Shown here piece after piece: positions 505 through 57,593 of a stretch of 64,000 nt of DNA. The stretch lies in NCBI GenBank assembly GCA_951406725.2, contig OX597815.1, positions 7,316,001 to 7,380,000 of the forward strand, given 5' to 3'. The notes beneath the pieces are model-generated. The model had not been told where the DNA came from and made no database searches. It saw nothing but the letters and a program-made list of their open reading frames with translations. Source of the stretch: Octopus vulgaris (Eukaryota). A program made the translations under genes and the position numbers. Numbering within the stretch: the stretch's first letter is position 1; each line of letters opens with the position of its first letter.

Positions 505-1179
505 ATCCAAGAATGGAGGTTGCGGTATTACATTTACCCCTTCATTACGATCGTTTCAACAACTCGCAGTTCAATGACACGTAGTATCAGAGCGCGCGCA
601 CACAGGTGCATTTGATTGCCTAATATTACAACATATCACATATGATCTATGTTCGTCTCATAAGACAAGGGTAAAAGAAGCGTTATTGCTAGGACATGAC
701 AATATGATATTCAATGGAGACGCTGTGTGTATTCGCTGCCTCTGTCCGGTGTTTCAATGTTAGTTTTCTTCAGCAAATTTCTGGCTGAAACAGGTCATTC
801 GTACTCTCTTCTCATAATGTGTCCATTTGGATATCAAGGCTGAAACACCCATCAACCAGCTTCGCCGGTTTGTCGATCCAGCCGCTGACAATACTGGGTC
901 AGCGGAACAGATTTGTTCTGTAGGTGCCGAACTGCAAGCCCATCGACCAGTCCGGGTTGGATTTGCTCGTCATTGCCTCCGGTTCCTTATGAATGGTGCT
1001 GATCATTTGAATTTCGTACCGTCCGACACCATTACGACGGCGTTGTTGCCATATACCTACACAGCTTTCCTGTGCCACAGTTCAAACTGGATGTCCTTTT
1101 GCACCTCTACTTGCTGCGGTGGTGACTCGAGAGTTAGTACATGGATTTGAGACGAAAGAGCAAACTGTTTGGCTATGTA

Positions 1180-1383
1180 AGCCGATGCGCGATCCTTTGT
1201 CGAGAACAGTGTCGGTCGGGAGTTTGACTGGGGCGGTACGTCTGTCAAACGGTAACGCAGGTGTCCCAAGGCGATCTCAGCGTGGACGGAAACCACACGT
1301 CGAGCAAAAGGGCAAAAGCTCGCTCGATCTCGATTTTCAGTACGAATACGAACCGCGAAAGCGTGGCCCATCGATCCTTTCCG
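1180..1383 (+). pseudogene. 28S (LSU) rRNA fragment, domain V region
   Basis: Contains GGGAGTTTGACTGGGGCGGTAC..TGTCAAACGGTAACGCAGGTGTCC..AAGGGCAAAAGCTCGCT.GATCT.GATTTTCAGTACGAATAC..CCGCGAAAGCGTGGCC, matching the conserved eukaryotic LSU core. Only ~200 bp, with no other rDNA nearby. Confidence 0.92.
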
Positions 1384-1385
1384 AA

Positions 1386-2168
1386 GGCGGCGAGCTGGCA
1401 GAAACGTTAGCACGCCGGGCGAATTGCGTAGCCGTATTTCGTCTGTCGTTACGTTCTGCGTTCAAATTCCGCCGAGGTCAACTTTGCCTTTCATCCTTTC
1501 GGGGTCGATAAATTAAGTACCAGTTACGCACTGGGGTCGATGTAATCGACTTAATACCTATGTATGTCCTTGTTTGTCCCCTCTATGTTTAGCCCCTAGT
1601 GGGTAATAAAGAAATACGTATTTCGTCTGCTGTTACGTTCTGCGTTCAAATTCCGCCGAGGTCAACTTTGGCTTTCATCCTTTCGGGGTCGATAAATAAA
1701 GTACCGGTTACGCACTGGGGTCGATGTAATCGACTTGATCCCTTTGTCTGTCCTTGTTTGTCCCCTCTATGTTTAGGCCCTTGTGGGTAATAAAGAAATA
1801 CGTATTTCGTCTGCCGTTACGTTCTGCGTTCAAATTCCGCCGAGGTCAACTTTGCCTTTCATCCTTTCGGGGTCGATAAATTAAGTACCATTTACGCACT
1901 GGGGTCGATGTAATCGACTTAATACCTATGTATGTCCTTGTTTGTCCCCTCTATGTTTAGCCCCTAGTGGGTAATAAAGAAATACGTATTTCGTCTGCTG
2001 TTACGTTCTGCGTTCAAATTCCGCCGAGGTCAACTTTGCCTTTCATCCTTTCGGGGTCGATAAATAAAGTACCGGTTACGCACTGGGGTCGATGTAATCG
2101 ACTTAATCCCTTTGTCTGTCTTTGTTTGTCCCCTCTATGTTTAGCCCCTTGTGGGCAATAAAGAAATA
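1386..2168 (+). mobile_element. tRNA-derived SINE (family B, GGCGGCGAGCTGGCAG head), four 184-bp body units in tandem
   Basis: A-box-like head and B-box-like GTTCAAATTCC. TATTTCGTCTG recurs at 1435, 1619, 1803 and 1987. Conserved core GCCTTTCATCCTTTCGGGGTCGATAAATTAAGTACC. Confidence 0.9.
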
Positions 2169-14789: not shown

Positions 14790-15521
14790 ACATAAGGTTG
14801 GTTTTCACAATTTAATGCTGCACTTATGGTTTTATATTCTAGTTTTCATGCTTCACCAGGTGGAGTCAAGAGGGTCTCATTCCAGCCTGGCAGAAAGTTA
14901 GAAACTGATCAGGGGAAAAGTACTTCCACGCCGTAAACCAGAACTCAGGGTTCACGAAACATTTTTCTCGTGGCTATGTGCTCAAGAACCTCTGGATCTT
15001 TTCTGCTTGGCTTTCACGTTTCAATCCCTTCAGTTTTGTCCCAATTCATTTCAAATTTGGTGTATTGGTGTGTCTTTTTGGCATAAATTAATAAATACAA
15101 AATTAATAGCTTTTAAAGTTTGCAAATTTTGGGTAATTTTAGCCAATCGAAAGTCACAGACATATGGCTGCCTGTTTTCATAGTAACAAACCAAGCTGTT
15201 CTGTGACCTGCTGATTCGTGTGTAGCTCTCCTGTCCAAACCACGTGTATTTTACTTTGTATTTTCTGCTTTTACGCATCTGTTGCTATCCGAGAAACAAA
15301 CGGACATTTTCCTAAAAAAGAAGTATGTTAAATGTTTTGTCATCGTGAGTGGTATTGGTAGACGGAAACTGAAAGAAGCCTTATGTCACTGTATGAAAAA
15401 ATTTTATAACATTCTTCTGACATAAGGACTTAAATTTATTTTTTAACCTTTTAAAACAAGCCTTCTGTAGTTTTTTCACTTTTTACTATTTTCTATATAT
15501 ATATACTTATATGTACGTATG

Positions 15522-15605
<84 letters not shown>

Positions 15606-15607
<2 letters not shown>

Positions 15608-16022
15608 CGCAGGAGTGGCTGTGTGGTAAGTAGCTTGCTAACCAACCACATGGTTCTGGGTTCAGTCCCACTGCGTGGCATCTTGGGCAAGTGTCTTCTG
15701 CTATAGCCCCGGGCCGACCAATGCCTTGTGAGTGGATTTGGTAGACGGAAACTGAAAGAAGCCTGTCGTATATATGTATATATATATATATGTGTGTGTG
15801 TGTGTTTGTGTGTCTGTGTTTGTCCCCCTAGCATTGCTTGACAACCGATGCTGGTGTGTTCACGTCCCCGTCACTTAGCGGTTCGGCAAAAGAGACCGAT
15901 AGAATAAGCACTGGGCTTACAAAGAATAAGTCCCGGGGGTCGATTTGCTCGACTAAAGGCGGTGCTCCAGCATGGCCACAGTCAAAATGACTGAAACAAG
16001 TAAAAGAGTAAAAGAGTAAAGA

Positions 16023-16024
<2 letters not shown>
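15606..16024 (+). mobile_element. SINE family A
   Basis: Full copy flanked by (TA)n. Confidence 0.92.
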
Positions 16025-16075
<51 letters not shown>

Positions 16076-16110
16076 CTTATATGTATGTATGTATGTATGT
16101 ATGTATGATG

Positions 16111-16140
<30 letters not shown>

Positions 16141-16141
<1 letters not shown>

Positions 16142-16373
16142 TTACTCTTTTTCTTTTTACTCTTTTTACTTGTTTCAGTCATTTGACTGCGGCCATGCTG
16201 GAGCACCGCCTTTAGTCGAGCAAATCGACCCCGGGACTTATTCTTTGTAAGCCCAGTACTTATTCTAACGGTCTCTTTTGCCGAACCGCTAAGTGACGGG
16301 GACGTAAACACACCAGCATCGGTTGTCAAGCAATGCTAGGGGAACAAACACAGACACACAAACATATTCACAA

Positions 16374-16404
<31 letters not shown>

Positions 16405-16565
16405 CGACAGGCTTCTTTCAGTTTCCGTCTACCAAATCCACTCACAAGGCATTGGTCGGCCCGGGGCTATAGCAGAAGGCACTTGCCCAAGATGCCACGC
16501 AGTGGGACTGAACCCGGAACCATGTGGTTGGTTAGCAAGCTACTTACCAAACAGCCACTCCTGCG

Positions 16566-16567
<2 letters not shown>
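16141..16567 (-). mobile_element. SINE family A
   Basis: Full copy, tail-to-tail with 15606-16024. Confidence 0.92.
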
Positions 16568-16621
<54 letters not shown>

Positions 16622-16645
<24 letters not shown>

Positions 16646-16890
16646 CGCGTGTGTGTGTGTGTATGCATATGTGTATGTGTGTGTGTATGTTTGTGTGTCT
16701 GTGTTTGTCCCCCCAACATCACTTGACAACCGATGATGGTGTGTTTACGTCCCCGTAAACTAGCGGCTCGGCAAAAGGGGATCGATTGAATAAATACTAG
16801 GCTTACAAAGATTAAGTCCTGGACTAAAGGCGGTGCTCCAGCATGGCCGCAGTCAAATAACTGAAACAAGTGAAAGAATAAAAGAATATA
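16622..16890 (+). mobile_element. SINE family A, 3' half
   Basis: Starts at the internal microsatellite; tail present. Confidence 0.85.
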
Positions 16891-40500: not shown

Positions 40501-40915
40501 GCCCCTAGGAAGTTAATTCCCCGTTAAGCACTTTGAGGTATTTTTTCCTTAGAAGTGTTTTATCTGGCTGCGTAAAAAAATTATCTTTCTTTCGGTACAT
40601 TTGTCCGTTCCTGCTAATCACACAGGAATTCTGTCTTTTAATGCTGCCTGAAGAGTAATACAATTCTCGAAACGTTCTGTAGCGGAAGACATGCTGCGAG
40701 CGATGATCACAGTCTTTTTTTTCCTGTTTTTTTTTCTGTTTTTTACTTTTTGCTACATCAGAATCTCTTAGCGTTCATTTTTGACTCTTTAGACCCAAAT
40801 ATTTCATAAATTACATGAAAGTTATTCGAGCTCTTTATATTGTGTGTGTGTCTGTGTGTGTACGTGTGCGTGGATCTGTGAGTACAAGTGTGTGTGAGTG
40901 TCTGTCTGTTTCTCT

Positions 40916-40953
<38 letters not shown>

Positions 40954-41237
40954 ACAGTCCGATGATGGCTCAGGTGGCCGAAACTTCGAAGTCCCAGTCA
41001 AATACTGTTCTTGTTAAAGAATGAAACATTTGTACTCTACCAATTGTATTATGTAAACCTCCAGTTTAATGTAAATTATTTTCATTATAACATAAAAACA
41101 AACATTAATATCTTTATATATACATATATATATATACACATATATACAAAAAGGGTGAAATATAATTAATTTAATAAAATTAATAAATTTCACCTAGTAG
41201 TTTTATCTGTATGGAAAAGACCATATTTGGTAAGAAT

Positions 41238-41489
41238 TATATTAATTATAATAAAGGGTTAATTGCAACAAGTTGCTCAAAACCACATACCGAAAATATT
41301 AGAAATGGCAGCCGAATAGGTCACCATTTCTCCTACTCTTTACCATATACGGGTTGCAAATTCTGGTTGTTTGTGGAGACTTTTTTACTAATAGGAGAAA
41401 TGGTGACCTATTCGGCTGCCATTTCTAATATTTTCGGTATGTGGTTTTGAGCAACTTGTTGCAATAAACCCTTTATTATAATTAATATA
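41238..41489. repeat. Long inverted repeat, 98-bp arms, 56-bp spacer
   Basis: 41238-41335 is the reverse complement of 41392-41489, with one visible mismatch. Confidence 0.93.
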
Positions 41490-46521: not shown

Positions 46522-47257
46522 TATATATATATGGACTTGCAGCAACGTGAAATGAAGTGTTTTGCTCAAGAACACAACGCGTTGCCCGGTCCAGGAATCG
46601 AAACCACAACCCTACGATCATGATGCTGAAAAAATTTAAATAGTCTATCTTAATTAATTGTTGAACATCCAGAATATCATTTTAAAGAAAACTATTTTGT
46701 GACATTTATGTTTATATTTTATGGTTACTGCTAATATTGTCCTGCAAAAGCCGTCAAGTTGTGTAGATTGTATATCATCTATTAATGTTGATTTATGTAT
46801 TAACAACTTCTAAGTTTAAACATTTTGACAGTTCATTTAGATGTCAATGAATCATTACTTATCTCGATGCTTGTTTATCTATTATTCTGGACAATGTAAT
46901 TTCGATAAATATTCCGCTTTTTTCTTCAATTAACGTTTTCGTACATTTGTCATTTCTCCAGTTTCGTTTCGACCAATGCAATTCGACGAGCACTCTTACA
47001 AACATTTATTTACTGAAAGCGTATGTGTGTGTGTGTGTGTGTGGTTTGTAAAAAGCATAAATCCTAAGAAAAGAAGCGCACTCTTAGATTGAGAGCAATA
47101 TATATTAAAACCGGGAAGGCCGGTTTATGGGCCTACCTTAGGTTTCCCATCCATAAAGGGTTGAACTTTATGGCGTATCGTCAGATACCAAAAGCCTGTT
47201 CCTCTTAAGAATATGGATTTCCATAGTTTTAAGAAGACATGGGCCAACAAGTTTTTG

Positions 47258-47318
47258 GGGATCTGACGATACGCCATAAAGTTCAACCCTTTATGAACGG
47301 GAAACCTAAGGTAATCTC
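47258..47318 (+). ncRNA. Type I hammerhead ribozyme motif
   Basis: GGGAT-CTGACGA-[imperfect helix II with CATAAAG/CTTTATG]-GAAAC-CTAAG-GTA-ATCTC; helix I has 5 bp; inverted partner at 47129-47189. Confidence 0.65.
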
Positions 47319-47348
47319 ATAAAGCGGTCTTTCCCATTTTTAATTTTT

Positions 47349-48143: not shown

Positions 48144-48204
<61 letters not shown>

Positions 48205-48446
48205 CAAAAATTAATTTGCGAAGGTGTCATTAATTCTATTATTATCCAATGTAACTATTTAAAAAAATGATAATAACAGAATTAATGACACAGGCGATAG
48301 CAGGCCAAAAATAGCATTAAATAGCCGTGGGATAAAAATTAATCAAAGGACATACTAGGTATGTCTACCTGCTAGAAATAACAGTCAAAACTTGACAGTT
48401 ATTTCAAGCAGGTAGACATACTTAGTATGTCCTTTGATTAATTTGA

Positions 48447-54826: not shown

Positions 54827-54896
<70 letters not shown>

Positions 54897-54899
<3 letters not shown>

Positions 54900-55228
54900 A
54901 AAGCAATTAAGATTCAAGTCAATTCTAATGAATTTACTTGAATGCGGTACTTAACTTAGATGCACCAGAAAACTATATGGTGATAACCATACAGTAATGT
55001 GGGGTGATTATAAACGAGAAAGAAGCAACAAGAATGGATTAGTTTTTAGTACAATTGTTTCATAAAGACAGGCTTTATTAAAAGTTGCAAATATTGCATC
55101 TGCTGCAATATTTGCAACTTTTAATAAAGCCTGTCTTTGTATGAAACAATTGTACTAAAAACTAATCCATTCTTGTTGCTTCTTTCTCGTATATATATAT
55201 ATATATATATATACATATATGTACGAGG

Positions 55229-55270
<42 letters not shown>

Positions 55271-55530
55271 AAAGCAATTAAGATTCAAGTCAATTCTAAT
55301 GAATTTACTTGAATGCGATACTTAACTTAGATGACCAGAAAACTATATGGTGATAACCATACAGTAATGTGGGGTGATTATAAACGAGAAAGAAGCAACA
55401 AGAATGGATTAGTTTTTAGTACAATTGTTTCATACGAAGACAGGCTTTATTAAAAGTTGCAAATATTGCATCTGCTGCAATATTTGCAACTTTTAATAAA
55501 GCCTGTCTTTGTATGAAACAATTGTACTAA
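54897..55530. repeat. Two tandem (TA)n-flanked fold-back units related to the Penelope-type terminus at 56060-56275
   Basis: Unit 1 arms 55014-55098 / 55104-55190; unit 2 arms 55416-55470 / 55476-55530. Both share GATGCACCAG..GTGGGGTGATTATAA..AAGCAACAAGAATG with 56060-56185. Confidence 0.9.
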
Positions 55531-55617
<87 letters not shown>

Positions 55618-55992
55618 TACGAAGAAGAACACTGGAGTCTGTTGAGATTTTTGATAGGCAAAATTTTATTCTTTTCTTACACAAAAACAAATAACATCTT
55701 TACTACGAACAACAAAACGTCAAGAGAGTTTGAATGTTATTGTTCATGGTATAGTTGCAGCAGCAGCAGCAGATAAAGTATTTTTAGCTGTTCATTGCCT
55801 TTGTGTTGTCAGCTGCTGCCCGCCGTCTCTGGTGGCCATCTCCTACAGTGTCTGTCAGTGTTTTCTCTGCTGCATCTCAAAGCTCTCTGTTTAATAGTCA
55901 TGGTGTGTCGAATCTATACTGATTGATGAACTCAGAAGGAAGTGCGCCAAAAGATGAAGTCGTCGCTAGAGCCTATTCCACGCGAAGATTTT

Positions 55993-56045
<53 letters not shown>

Positions 56046-56193
56046 TTTCTTTATATATATAAGTTCAGCAAAAATTTAGATTCAAATGAATATGGTACTT
56101 AATTTAGATGCACCAGAATTCTGTATGGTGTTATCCATAAAAATCCGTGGGGTGATTATAATCAAAATAAGCAACAAGAATGACTCCGGTAAT

Positions 56194-56275
56194 TTGGTAC
56201 GATCGTTTCGTACTACATCATTTTATTAAATGTTGTATTACAACAGTTTTAAAATGCTGAGCACTCATCAGCCAA
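56194..56275 (-). ncRNA. Type I hammerhead ribozyme with canonical core (Penelope-type)
   Basis: TTGG-CTGATGA-GTGC..long helix II..GTAC-GAAAC-GATC-GTA-CCAA; palindromic helix III ACGATCGT; predicted cut between 56198 and 56197. Confidence 0.85.
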
Positions 56276-57179
56276 TTATAGAGGTTTTCCATTAATACAA
56301 AAATTTTCATATCAAGTGGCAACATTATTGAAAAGGTAGATATATAGACACAAGATGTGGATTTAAATTTTAAGAACATTTGAGGTAGTGGAGCCCATCA
56401 ACTGACTGACTAAGATTCAGTTGTTCCAGACTACTGTAAGGTTCTGAGAGGGAAGAACAAATGAAAGGAGACAATAAAGATTTTCTAATTATAGAAATGG
56501 GGTAAAGGGGATGTCAGAGCTCCATATAAGGAATTTATGTAGAAAACAGCATTGTCACAACTAAATGCCAATTACTACTATTTGATGAGCAGATTCGGCG
56601 TTAGGAGAACTAGGTCAATGTCAGGTGGTCACAATAACATTCACAGAGAATGCAGAGACCTTACAAACCCTATGCATATCGACACAACAGTTGGTCTATA
56701 AGTTCCAAGTACTTTGACACGTTAGAATAAAGGAAAAAATATAAATCTAAAATTCATTCAATTTGGAGAAAAAGACTATCACTTATTATGAGTAGGCATA
56801 GTACTTATTAACTGGGGGAAAAAGCCTTATTAATCAAGTTGCACCAGTCGTGTCTTTCCTGGATGATCCACCAAGGGGTGAGAGAGTGTCAATGGCTACT
56901 TGCCAAAAACAATTAATGAAAGTGTGGTACACGTTACCAAGAAACGCTCGCAGGTGACGAAAGGCTGTTCTGTATTGTACTATATTCCCACTATCCAAGA
57001 ATTATTTTGTCTTCTCACTTTTTCCCTACTTTTAGCGAATGAGCCCTTCCTTAAACTCCTCGGTCTCAGGAAACCGCCATAAGACATCCTCACTATTTCG
57101 AATTATAGTCTCCCTATATTTTCGGCAGCTTTCATATATGTCTAGTTACATCCGCACGAAATGTACTAGTCTTATATAT

Positions 57180-57593
57180 ATTTCTTTATTGCCCACAGGG
57201 GGCTAAACATAGAGGGGACAAACAAGGACAGATAATGGGATTAAGTCGATTACATCGACCCCAGTGATTGACTGGTACTTATTTAATCGCCCCCGAAAAG
57301 ATGAAAGGCAAAGTCGACCTCGGCGGAATTTGAACTCAGAACGTAAAGACAGACGAAATACCTATTTCTTTACTACCCACAAGGGGCTAAACAGAGAGAG
57401 GACAAACAAGGACAGACAAACGGATTAAGTCTATTATATCGACCCCAGTGCGTAACTGGTACTTAATTTATCGACCCCAAATAGATGAAAGGCAAAGTCG
57501 ACCTCGGCGGAATTTGAACTCAGAACGTAACGGCAGACGAAATACCGCTAAGCATTTCGCCCGGCGTGCTAACGTTTCTGCCAGCTCGCCGCT
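57180..57593 (-). mobile_element. SINE family B, two body units
   Basis: Head plus duplicated body. Confidence 0.9.

What the first reader, a model, noticed from the sequence alone, without database searches (positions are those of the whole stretch)
54897..56275. Fold-back elements made of half a hammerhead, beside an intact relative
Seen: the element at 56060-56275 ends in a canonical hammerhead with a long helix II. Two related units upstream instead fold back at about the position of the helix II loop, so each strand carries only GAAAC-AAUU-GUA and CUGANGA is lost. All three start at (TA)n. Inference: the RT or repair polymerase snapped back within the ribozyme hairpin and copied its own product. 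This suggests a general PLE-driven, (TA)n-primed palindrome-generating process that could also explain the 41.2, 47.1 and 48.3 kb structures. The half-ribozymes might serve as trans substrates. This is the strongest candidate for an undescribed system in the window.
Basis: partly seen in the sequence, partly recalled or inferred. Interest (0 to 1): 0.75.

Follow-up and report, generated by a model that had tools for sequence, protein, structure and literature searches.

The report
Truncated Penelope insertions with inverted ends
These fold-backs are short stubs of a common ribozyme-carrying jumping gene (a Penelope-like element) in a mirror-image layout already known for this class; the half-ribozymes are likely a by-product of truncation, although in one family the joins cluster unexpectedly at the tip of the ribozyme's long stem.

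Summary
The motifs and fold-backs are real, but they belong to a known kind. The two upstream units (U1, U2) are one insertion, probably duplicated in tandem, of a high-copy Penelope-like retrotransposon with every Hydra-clade motif. Its longer copies carry their own intact hammerhead and an RT plus GIY-YIG ORF. E3 (56060-56839) is a sister family. The layout (tail arm, then inverted tail-less arm, in (TA)n) is the published PLE footprint. In 63 of 97 sampled copies, the inverted arm ends at one fixed site while the joins vary. Simple snap-back fits only 18 of 63 joins, and not U1. Solo tail-less copies exist (8 of 22). The best reading is two cDNAs primed on opposite target strands and joined by microhomology (inferred). 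Two leftovers are unexplained: arms are equal in length more often than chance (23 of 63 against 7 expected), and U-family joins cluster at the helix II apex (25 of 63), which the E family does not show (7 of 39 in all of helix II). U1's own join is unconfirmed by reads. This scan found the same architecture before, on other DNA of this genome.

The parts
54833..54896 (.). (TA)n target, left flank of U1
   Evidence: sequence
54897..55014 (-). U1 'tail' (about 115 nt); in tandem copies this is the start of the element's 5' untranslated region, just before the ORF
   Evidence: L344 and L418 show pLTR + tail running into the ORF start
55015..55098 (-). U1 arm 1, pLTR part, 5'-truncated at family position 201 inside helix II; half motif GAAAC-AATT-GTA at 55061-55050; apical hairpin at 55086-55098
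55098..55099 (.). U1 head-to-head join (arm 1 ends at family position 201, arm 2 begins at 207, 1-nt overlap)
   Evidence: not bridged by any listed public contig
55099..55189 (+). U1 arm 2: inverted, tail-less pLTR copy ending at the family's fixed site (position 116); half motif at 55143-55154
55190..55266 (.). Interrupted (TA)n spacer between U1 and U2
   Evidence: sequence
55267..55470 (-). U2 arm 1 (tail + truncated pLTR), probable tandem duplicate of U1; half motif at 55431-55420
   Evidence: same join and shared private base as U1
55471..55530 (+). U2 arm 2, inverted, shortened at its outer end; half motif at 55515-55526
55537..55616 (.). (TA)n, right flank of U2
   Evidence: sequence
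56060..56839 (-). E3: solo 5'-truncated copy of a sister PLE family (tail about 56060-56160, pLTR, part of the 3' untranslated region); no inverted arm, no ORF
56191..56277 (-). Type I hammerhead motif of E3: CTGATGA 56271-56265, helix II 56264-56210 (4 nt shorter at the apex than most family copies), GAAAC-GATC-GTA 56209-56198, predicted cut between 56198 and 56197
   Evidence: activity not tested

Best explanation
U1 and U2 are a 5'-truncated insertion of a Penelope-like retrotransposon, likely duplicated in tandem afterwards, in which a tail-bearing arm is joined head-to-head to an inverted tail-less arm; the two arms were likely made as two separate cDNAs primed on the two strands of a (TA)n target and joined through short matching bases, so that the half-hammerheads are likely a by-product of truncation. 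Shown: family membership, the RT + GIY-YIG ORF in long copies, the two fixed outer ends (family positions 1 and 116), variable joins, excess microhomology, solo copies of either arm. Inferred: the endonuclease nicks both strands of (TA)n; RT starts at position 1 from one nick and at 116 from the other; both copy the same RNA or the same source element and often stop near the same place; host end-joining fuses the two cDNA ends, sometimes with short templated inserts. In the U family three overlapping self-complementary words at the helix II apex (family 188-201) likely favour release or joining there.
For: Family: 197 exact tail matches for U and 766 for E. Full-length copy L344: (TA)n, direct pLTR + tail, 941-codon frame, 1.57-kb 3' UTR, pLTR ending at 116, (TA)n. 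Layout: 63 of 97 U copies and 39 of 85 E copies have an adjoining inverted arm ending at the fixed tail-less site. Two independent starts: 8 of 22 insertions found through the pLTR are solo tail-less copies, and several pairs share no sequence between arms (e.g. L141 85/238, L233 33/188). Arm 2 longer than arm 1 by more than 12 nt in 29 of 63; by about 1.1 kb in L188 and about 1.8 kb in L102. Microhomology at 42 simple U joins: mean 2.7 against 0.75 nt by chance, 4 nt or more in 29% against 2%; inserts of 5 nt or more in 13 of 63, several made of nearby element sequence. Spacer-free joins with equal arms sit on self-complementary words or are blunt, which an intramolecular snap-back cannot give directly. 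In vitro, a lizard PLE protein cuts and extends both strands, starts at two sites that bound the tail, and does not need hammerhead cleavage (PMC11167929). Public contigs of 3 runs show the tail-less (TA)n boundary and 8 other arm-to-arm joints.
Against: Arms are equal to within 12 nt far more often than independent truncation predicts (U 23 of 63 against 7.2; E 21 of 39 against 3.3; p 5e-5), so plain twin priming needs an extra assumption (shared template end or later trimming). Arms agree at 30 of 32 shared variant sites, which fits snap-back equally well. The U hotspot is not explained and is absent in E. A published reading of such palindromes is self-priming (PMC3846280). Pfam gives only a sub-threshold RVT_1 hit (E 0.008) for one fragment and nothing for two longer frames; PDB gives nothing. 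U1's own join is not bridged by any listed contig.
Confidence: 0.7

Rival explanations
1. Snap-back: one cDNA folds on itself, is copied back to position 116 where the endonuclease cuts, and asymmetric deletions at the centre later make the arms unequal (the first reader's idea plus trimming; close to the self-priming proposal of PMC3846280).
For: Excess of near-equal arms in both families; arms agree at 30 of 32 shared variants; U joins peak just past the apical hairpin; 18 of 63 U joins fit the geometry directly.
Against: 45 of 63 U and 27 of 39 E joins do not fit; among near-equal joins arm 2 is as long or longer in 15 of 23 and 16 of 21, the wrong direction; solo tail-less copies (8 of 22) and pairs with no shared sequence need large one-sided deletions; no peak at E's stronger apical hairpin.
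Confidence: 0.17
2. Twin priming makes the pair, but the near-symmetry and the U hotspot arise after insertion, when long palindromes lose their centres by slippage or hairpin cutting. This can hold together with the best explanation.
For: Microhomology at joins; none of 15 solo tail arms at risk ends in 188-213 against 16 of 40 inverted ones (p 0.003), so the peak belongs to the inverted state, not to RT stalling alone; palindrome instability is established knowledge (recalled).
Against: Arm 2 begins at 201-211 even when arm 1 ends 300-2700 nt further on (L163, L145, L135, L230), where no helix partner is available; templated inserts look like end-joining.
Confidence: 0.25
3. The fold-backs are assembly or library artefacts of (TA)n-rich DNA.
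For: U1's join is unconfirmed in public contigs; no long reads could be laid.
Against: Arms differ by 50 one-sided substitutions over 5,839 sites; the inverted arm stops at one fixed family position and often holds sequence absent from arm 1; public contigs from other runs show arm-to-arm joints and the fixed boundary.
Confidence: 0.03
4. A functional non-autonomous element whose half-hammerheads act as trans substrates or decoys.
For: The half keeps helix III, the cut site and the helix I strand; alone it can pair weakly with an intact copy (predicted gain -5.3 kcal/mol, but not in the hammerhead fold). 21 of 63 inverted copies have both arms ending in helix II.
Against: Joins differ from copy to copy, so no unit is being propagated; the whole U1 transcript is predicted to be a closed hairpin with no gain from pairing.
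Confidence: 0.03

Closest known systems
Hydra-clade Penelope-like elements (Craig et al. 2021, PMC8557442; passages and section 11 read, supplements not)
   Same: C-terminal GIY-YIG endonuclease, RWK, DKT, CxCx5C linker, no CCHH inside the core, CxxC and CxH around the conserved E and N, canonical hammerhead, insertion into (TA)n.
   Different: About 4.9 kb against 'generally' under 3 kb; two asparagine-rich inserts; 1.57-kb 3' UTR; 55-60-nt helix II. No tree with named Hydra proteins was made.
Inverted pLTR and tail structures of endonuclease-positive PLEs (PMC3846280 passages and Discussion; PMC8557442 Fig. 2 legend; PMC4209133 part 1 of 4)
   Same: 5'-truncated copy with an adjoining inverted copy, tail at one end only, palindromes at the join, opposite-strand hammerheads 100-700 bp apart; asparagine-rich inserts also described in rotifer PLEs.
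   Different: Tail of about 105-115 nt against 30-40 bp; here both arms are cut inside the ribozyme; join statistics favour two cDNAs over the self-priming proposed there.
Poseidon element of Anolis in vitro (PMC11167929, parts 1-2 of 4)
   Same: AT-rich target, both strands cut and extended, two RT start sites bounding the tail near the ORF start, hammerhead cleavage dispensable.
   Different: Other clade; the paper parts read do not treat the inverted join.
Animal non-LTR retrozymes (bioRxiv 10.64898/2026.07.22.740005, part 1 of 5)
   Same: Type I hammerhead related to PLE pLTRs.
   Different: U and E have coding long copies and are not tandem ribozyme monomers.
Twin priming of LINE-1 (recalled, no call)
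   Same: Two target strands prime two cDNAs that are joined by microhomology to give a 5' inversion.
   Different: In LINE-1 the two cDNAs cover different parts of the RNA; here they overlap, which gives a palindrome, and both starts are fixed.

Membership tests
Endonuclease-positive Penelope-like element | Single ORF with RT and GIY-YIG endonuclease | tested here: met
   941-codon frame in L344 and 783 in L332 with YRDD and VIY...YIG motifs; 39 unnamed homologues with the same motifs, 32-46% identical apart from one partial octopus hit. Pfam support is weak; motif names are from PMC8557442 or recalled. E family: endonuclease seen in L206, L207, L350, RT not recovered.
Endonuclease-positive Penelope-like element | Partial tandem forming a direct pLTR before the ORF | tested here: met
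   L344 and L418
Endonuclease-positive Penelope-like element | Inverted 5'-truncated copy with tail at one end only | tested here: met
   63 of 97 U and 39 of 85 E copies; one E pair has the tail at both ends (L221)
Endonuclease-positive Penelope-like element | Hammerhead motif in the pLTR, sense strand | tested here: met
   44 of 100 U and 35 of 90 E copies keep both core halves; cleavage not tested
Hydra clade | RWK and DKT motifs | tested here: met
   RIRWK and ADKTG in P0001
Hydra clade | CxCx5C linker; no CCHH in the endonuclease core; CxxC and CxH around conserved E and N | tested here: met
   CKCRIKSRC; one cysteine between VIY and YIG; CQLC..E..N..CVH
Hydra clade | Insertion into (TA)n | tested here: met
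   TA-repeat flanks in nearly all rows (read by eye, not counted)
Hydra clade | Generally under 3 kb (a tendency, not a criterion) | tested here: not met
   L344 spans about 4.9 kb
Hydra clade | Placement in the clade by RT phylogeny | not tested
   No named reference proteins were fetched
Non-LTR retrozyme | Non-coding tandem monomers, each with a whole hammerhead | tested here: not met
   Long copies code for RT and endonuclease; U1/U2 lack the CUGANGA half
MITE or fold-back DNA transposon | Fixed unit with terminal inverted repeats | tested here: not met
   One end has a 115-nt unpaired tail and the centre differs between copies
Active hammerhead ribozyme | Self-cleavage as monomer or dimer | not testable with these tools
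   Motif present; unconstrained folds do not give the full active core

The most novel reading that the evidence does not exclude
Genomic joins record how PLE inverted ends are made: two RTs start at two fixed sites on one RNA from opposite target strands and tend to stop together, and in the U family the tip of the hammerhead's long helix II is a true release-and-join hotspot (40% of inverted arms in a 26-nt window), so the ribozyme's sequence shapes insertion length without any need for catalysis.
Probability: 0.3. Interest if true: 0.55.

Novelty: new member of a known kind. Interest (0 to 1): 0.3.

Why it matters
As a system it is not new. Its use is as a data set: how PLE inverted ends form is called an open question in PMC8557442, and these young, high-copy families with a full-length copy give countable joins and a protein that could be assayed. 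The counts favour two cDNAs over self-priming and give two sharp predictions (two start sites 115 nt apart; a join peak that should move or vanish when the helix II apex is changed). It also warns repeat annotators that such stubs look like MITEs or microRNA hairpins.

Tried and rejected
Rfam scan: no hammerhead family among the 150 of 294 rows shown; hits were microsatellite noise plus one rRNA-like fragment. tblastn of the window with the U ORF and endonuclease: no hit at E 0.01; 56280-57150 has no long frame. Pfam and PDB on the long frames: nothing. Reads: only assembled contigs were offered, no long reads; no RNA holder listed, so expression is open; U1's join was not bridged in the pieces listed. 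Hammerhead cleavage as cause of truncation: no peak at the U cut site (arm 1 3.8-5.4 per kb around it against about 3 elsewhere; arm 2 1.4-1.9). RT run-off at a transcription start as cause of the U peak: solo copies show no peak (0 of 15). Arm-versus-arm variants could not separate the models. Look-ups of earlier notes by sequence and nearby place gave nothing. PMC12602865 and PMC13282606 (passages only) added nothing on inverted ends or ribozymes. Paper searches found no paper applying twin priming or a helix II hotspot to PLEs; the library lacks most subscription papers, including the older Penelope structure papers, and supplements of PMC8557442, which list Hydra families, were not read.

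Full report
Setting. The window lies in a 2.8-Gb animal assembly rich in (TA)n. The one informatively named protein hit of the element is from an octopus. Names used here: U1 (54897-55189), U2 (55267-55530), E3 (56060-56839). 'Family position' counts from the (TA)n-side end of a natural long copy (L100 for U; L299 or L316 for E), so larger numbers lie further 5' in the element, whose sense strand is the window's minus strand.

Observation. U1's arms form an 87-bp hairpin. Three corrections matter. E3 runs on to about 56839 as non-coding family sequence. E3 is only 75-78% like U, and U has its own intact hammerhead in longer copies. U1 and U2 have the same join and share a base at 54983 that public contigs read otherwise, so they are best taken as one insertion duplicated through its (TA)n flanks; similar tandems occur elsewhere (L152 three copies, L191 two).

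What the families are. An exact tail pattern has 197 matches for U and 766 for E, with none for the reversed control. [quoted passage not shown] L344 is full length: (TA)n, direct pLTR from position 371 with the 115-nt tail, a 941-codon frame, the 3' region, a pLTR ending at 116, (TA)n. The protein has RWK, DKT, CxCx5C, no CCHH in the core, and CxxC/CxH around the conserved E and N, each listed for the Hydra clade in section 11 of PMC8557442. Profile support is weak: RVT_1 at E 0.008 for one fragment, nothing for the long frames. E copies reach a related endonuclease; their RT was not recovered.

Sampling. For U, I parsed the first 100 of 197 tail matches (contigs 1-9), chosen without regard to the join; 3 tandem duplicates were dropped, leaving 97; 63 passed the rule 'inverted arm ending at the fixed site, within 70 nt of arm 1' and 34 did not (solo copies, very short arms, long spacers, or running out of the fetched DNA). 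For E, 91 of 766 matches gave 90 copies; 2 duplicates and 3 copies of a divergent subfamily were dropped, leaving 85, of which 39 passed. In one search one U row (L194) was corrected by hand for an internal deletion seen, and the 18 solo rows were picked by hand from the 34.

Layout. The inverted arm ends at position 116 in U (window 55015 and 55189) and at the homologous site in E (10 of 29 other copies, at 56157-56162). This is the published PLE footprint: an inverted 5'-truncated copy next to the 5' end, with a tail at one end only (PMC8557442; PMC3846280), and opposite-strand hammerheads close together (PMC4209133).

Snap-back tested. If arm 2 were copied from arm 1 it could not hold sequence that arm 1 lacks, and it should begin at least a loop length inside arm 1. 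That geometry holds for 18 of 63 U and 12 of 39 E joins; arm 2 overshoots by more than 12 nt in 29 and 11. U1 (201/207) overshoots. Among 22 distinct insertions found through the pLTR pattern, 8 are solo tail-less copies, so position 116 behaves as a start site in its own right. Joins have excess microhomology and often short inserts made of nearby element sequence. With the in vitro finding that a PLE protein cuts and extends both strands from two start sites (PMC11167929), two cDNAs joined end to end is the simplest account. This step is inference.

What does not fit simply. Arms are equal within 12 nt in 23 of 63 U and 21 of 39 E joins, against 7.2 and 3.3 under shuffling, and they agree at 30 of 32 shared variant sites in 53 rows. 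Either both RTs use one RNA and stop together, or centres are trimmed later, or some joins are snap-backs.

Helix II. In U, helix II spans 163-222 with its apical hairpin at 189-201. Arm 2 begins in 188-213 in 25 of 63 copies, a rate 4.5 times that elsewhere (p 9e-8 for a window chosen after seeing the data; 0 of 400 simulations reached the scan score); arm 1 shows 2.6 times (scan p 0.04); over all of helix II the ratio is about 2. Three of 7 further inverted insertions from the second pattern also fall there. In E there is no such peak: 7 of 39 in all of helix II, ratio 0.42; 2 of 24 against 25 of 54 at risk, p 0.002, although E's apical stem is longer. Solo U arms do not stop there (0 of 15). 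Three overlapping self-complementary words at 188-201 are the likeliest cause, as partners for joining, but arm 2 also starts there when arm 1 ends far away, so the peak is not fully explained. 29 of 63 inverted copies keep at least one whole hammerhead and 18 keep two: half-hammerhead palindromes are one size class of a continuum.

Other palindromes in the window. All three are high-copy families with a tail and a fixed inner end. At 47.1 kb both arms keep whole hammerheads; 18 of 30 copies have the motif and 7 loci have RT or endonuclease hits, so it is a PLE. At 41.2 and 48.3 kb no hammerhead (0 of 30 each) and no RT or endonuclease hit was found within 1.5 kb; the 41.2-kb inverted arm also holds about 50 nt absent from its first arm. 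They are probably PLE products, not shown.

Reality of the DNA. Public contigs of runs X1, X2 and X4 show the (TA)n boundary of the tail-less end and 8 arm-to-arm joints at other positions; one of these runs may be the assembly's own sample. U1's join itself was not bridged in the listed pieces.

Trans substrate. A U1 transcript is predicted to be a closed hairpin with no gain from pairing to an intact hammerhead. Rejected as unlikely, untested.

Verdict. A new Hydra-type PLE family pair showing a known inverted-end layout. Earlier notes of this scan reached the same class on other DNA of this genome; my reading was written before that look-up and those notes are not counted as support. Interest 0.3, for the countable joins and the family-specific peak.

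Noticed in passing
L344:4926-5140 (also L418): The pLTR end, tail and ORF start fold into a long multi-stem structure (-56.8 kcal/mol, z -6.6, 0 of 200 shuffles); the start site at 116 lies in a single-stranded linker. The blocks best kept between U and E tails are its stems. A candidate protein-binding element.
   Followed up: partly
window 47048-47344: Older head-to-head insertion of a third hammerhead PLE family with both ribozymes whole.
   Followed up: yes
window 41146-41489 and 48204-48444: Tail plus inverted tail-less arm in (TA)n, high copy, but no hammerhead or ORF found in 30 loci each. The 41.2-kb tail has a small hairpin resembling that of U and E.
   Followed up: partly
L344:5072-7894: Two asparagine-rich inserts in the ORF, absent from five of six aligned homologues, like those described in rotifer PLEs.
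   Followed up: no
window 1036-1439: Decayed fragment like eukaryotic large-subunit rRNA (E 9e-34).
   Followed up: no
window 40648-40680: Small hammerhead-like motif on the plus strand; may be chance.
   Followed up: no
L065/L066 around 1150-1300: A further U-related subfamily (about 78-83%) with its own hammerhead and long inverted arm lies next to a U insertion.
   Followed up: no
window 15345-16883: Cluster of inverted repeats, arms up to 415 nt, not examined.
   Followed up: no
window 57174-57541: Two tandem 184-nt copies of a common dispersed repeat.
   Followed up: no
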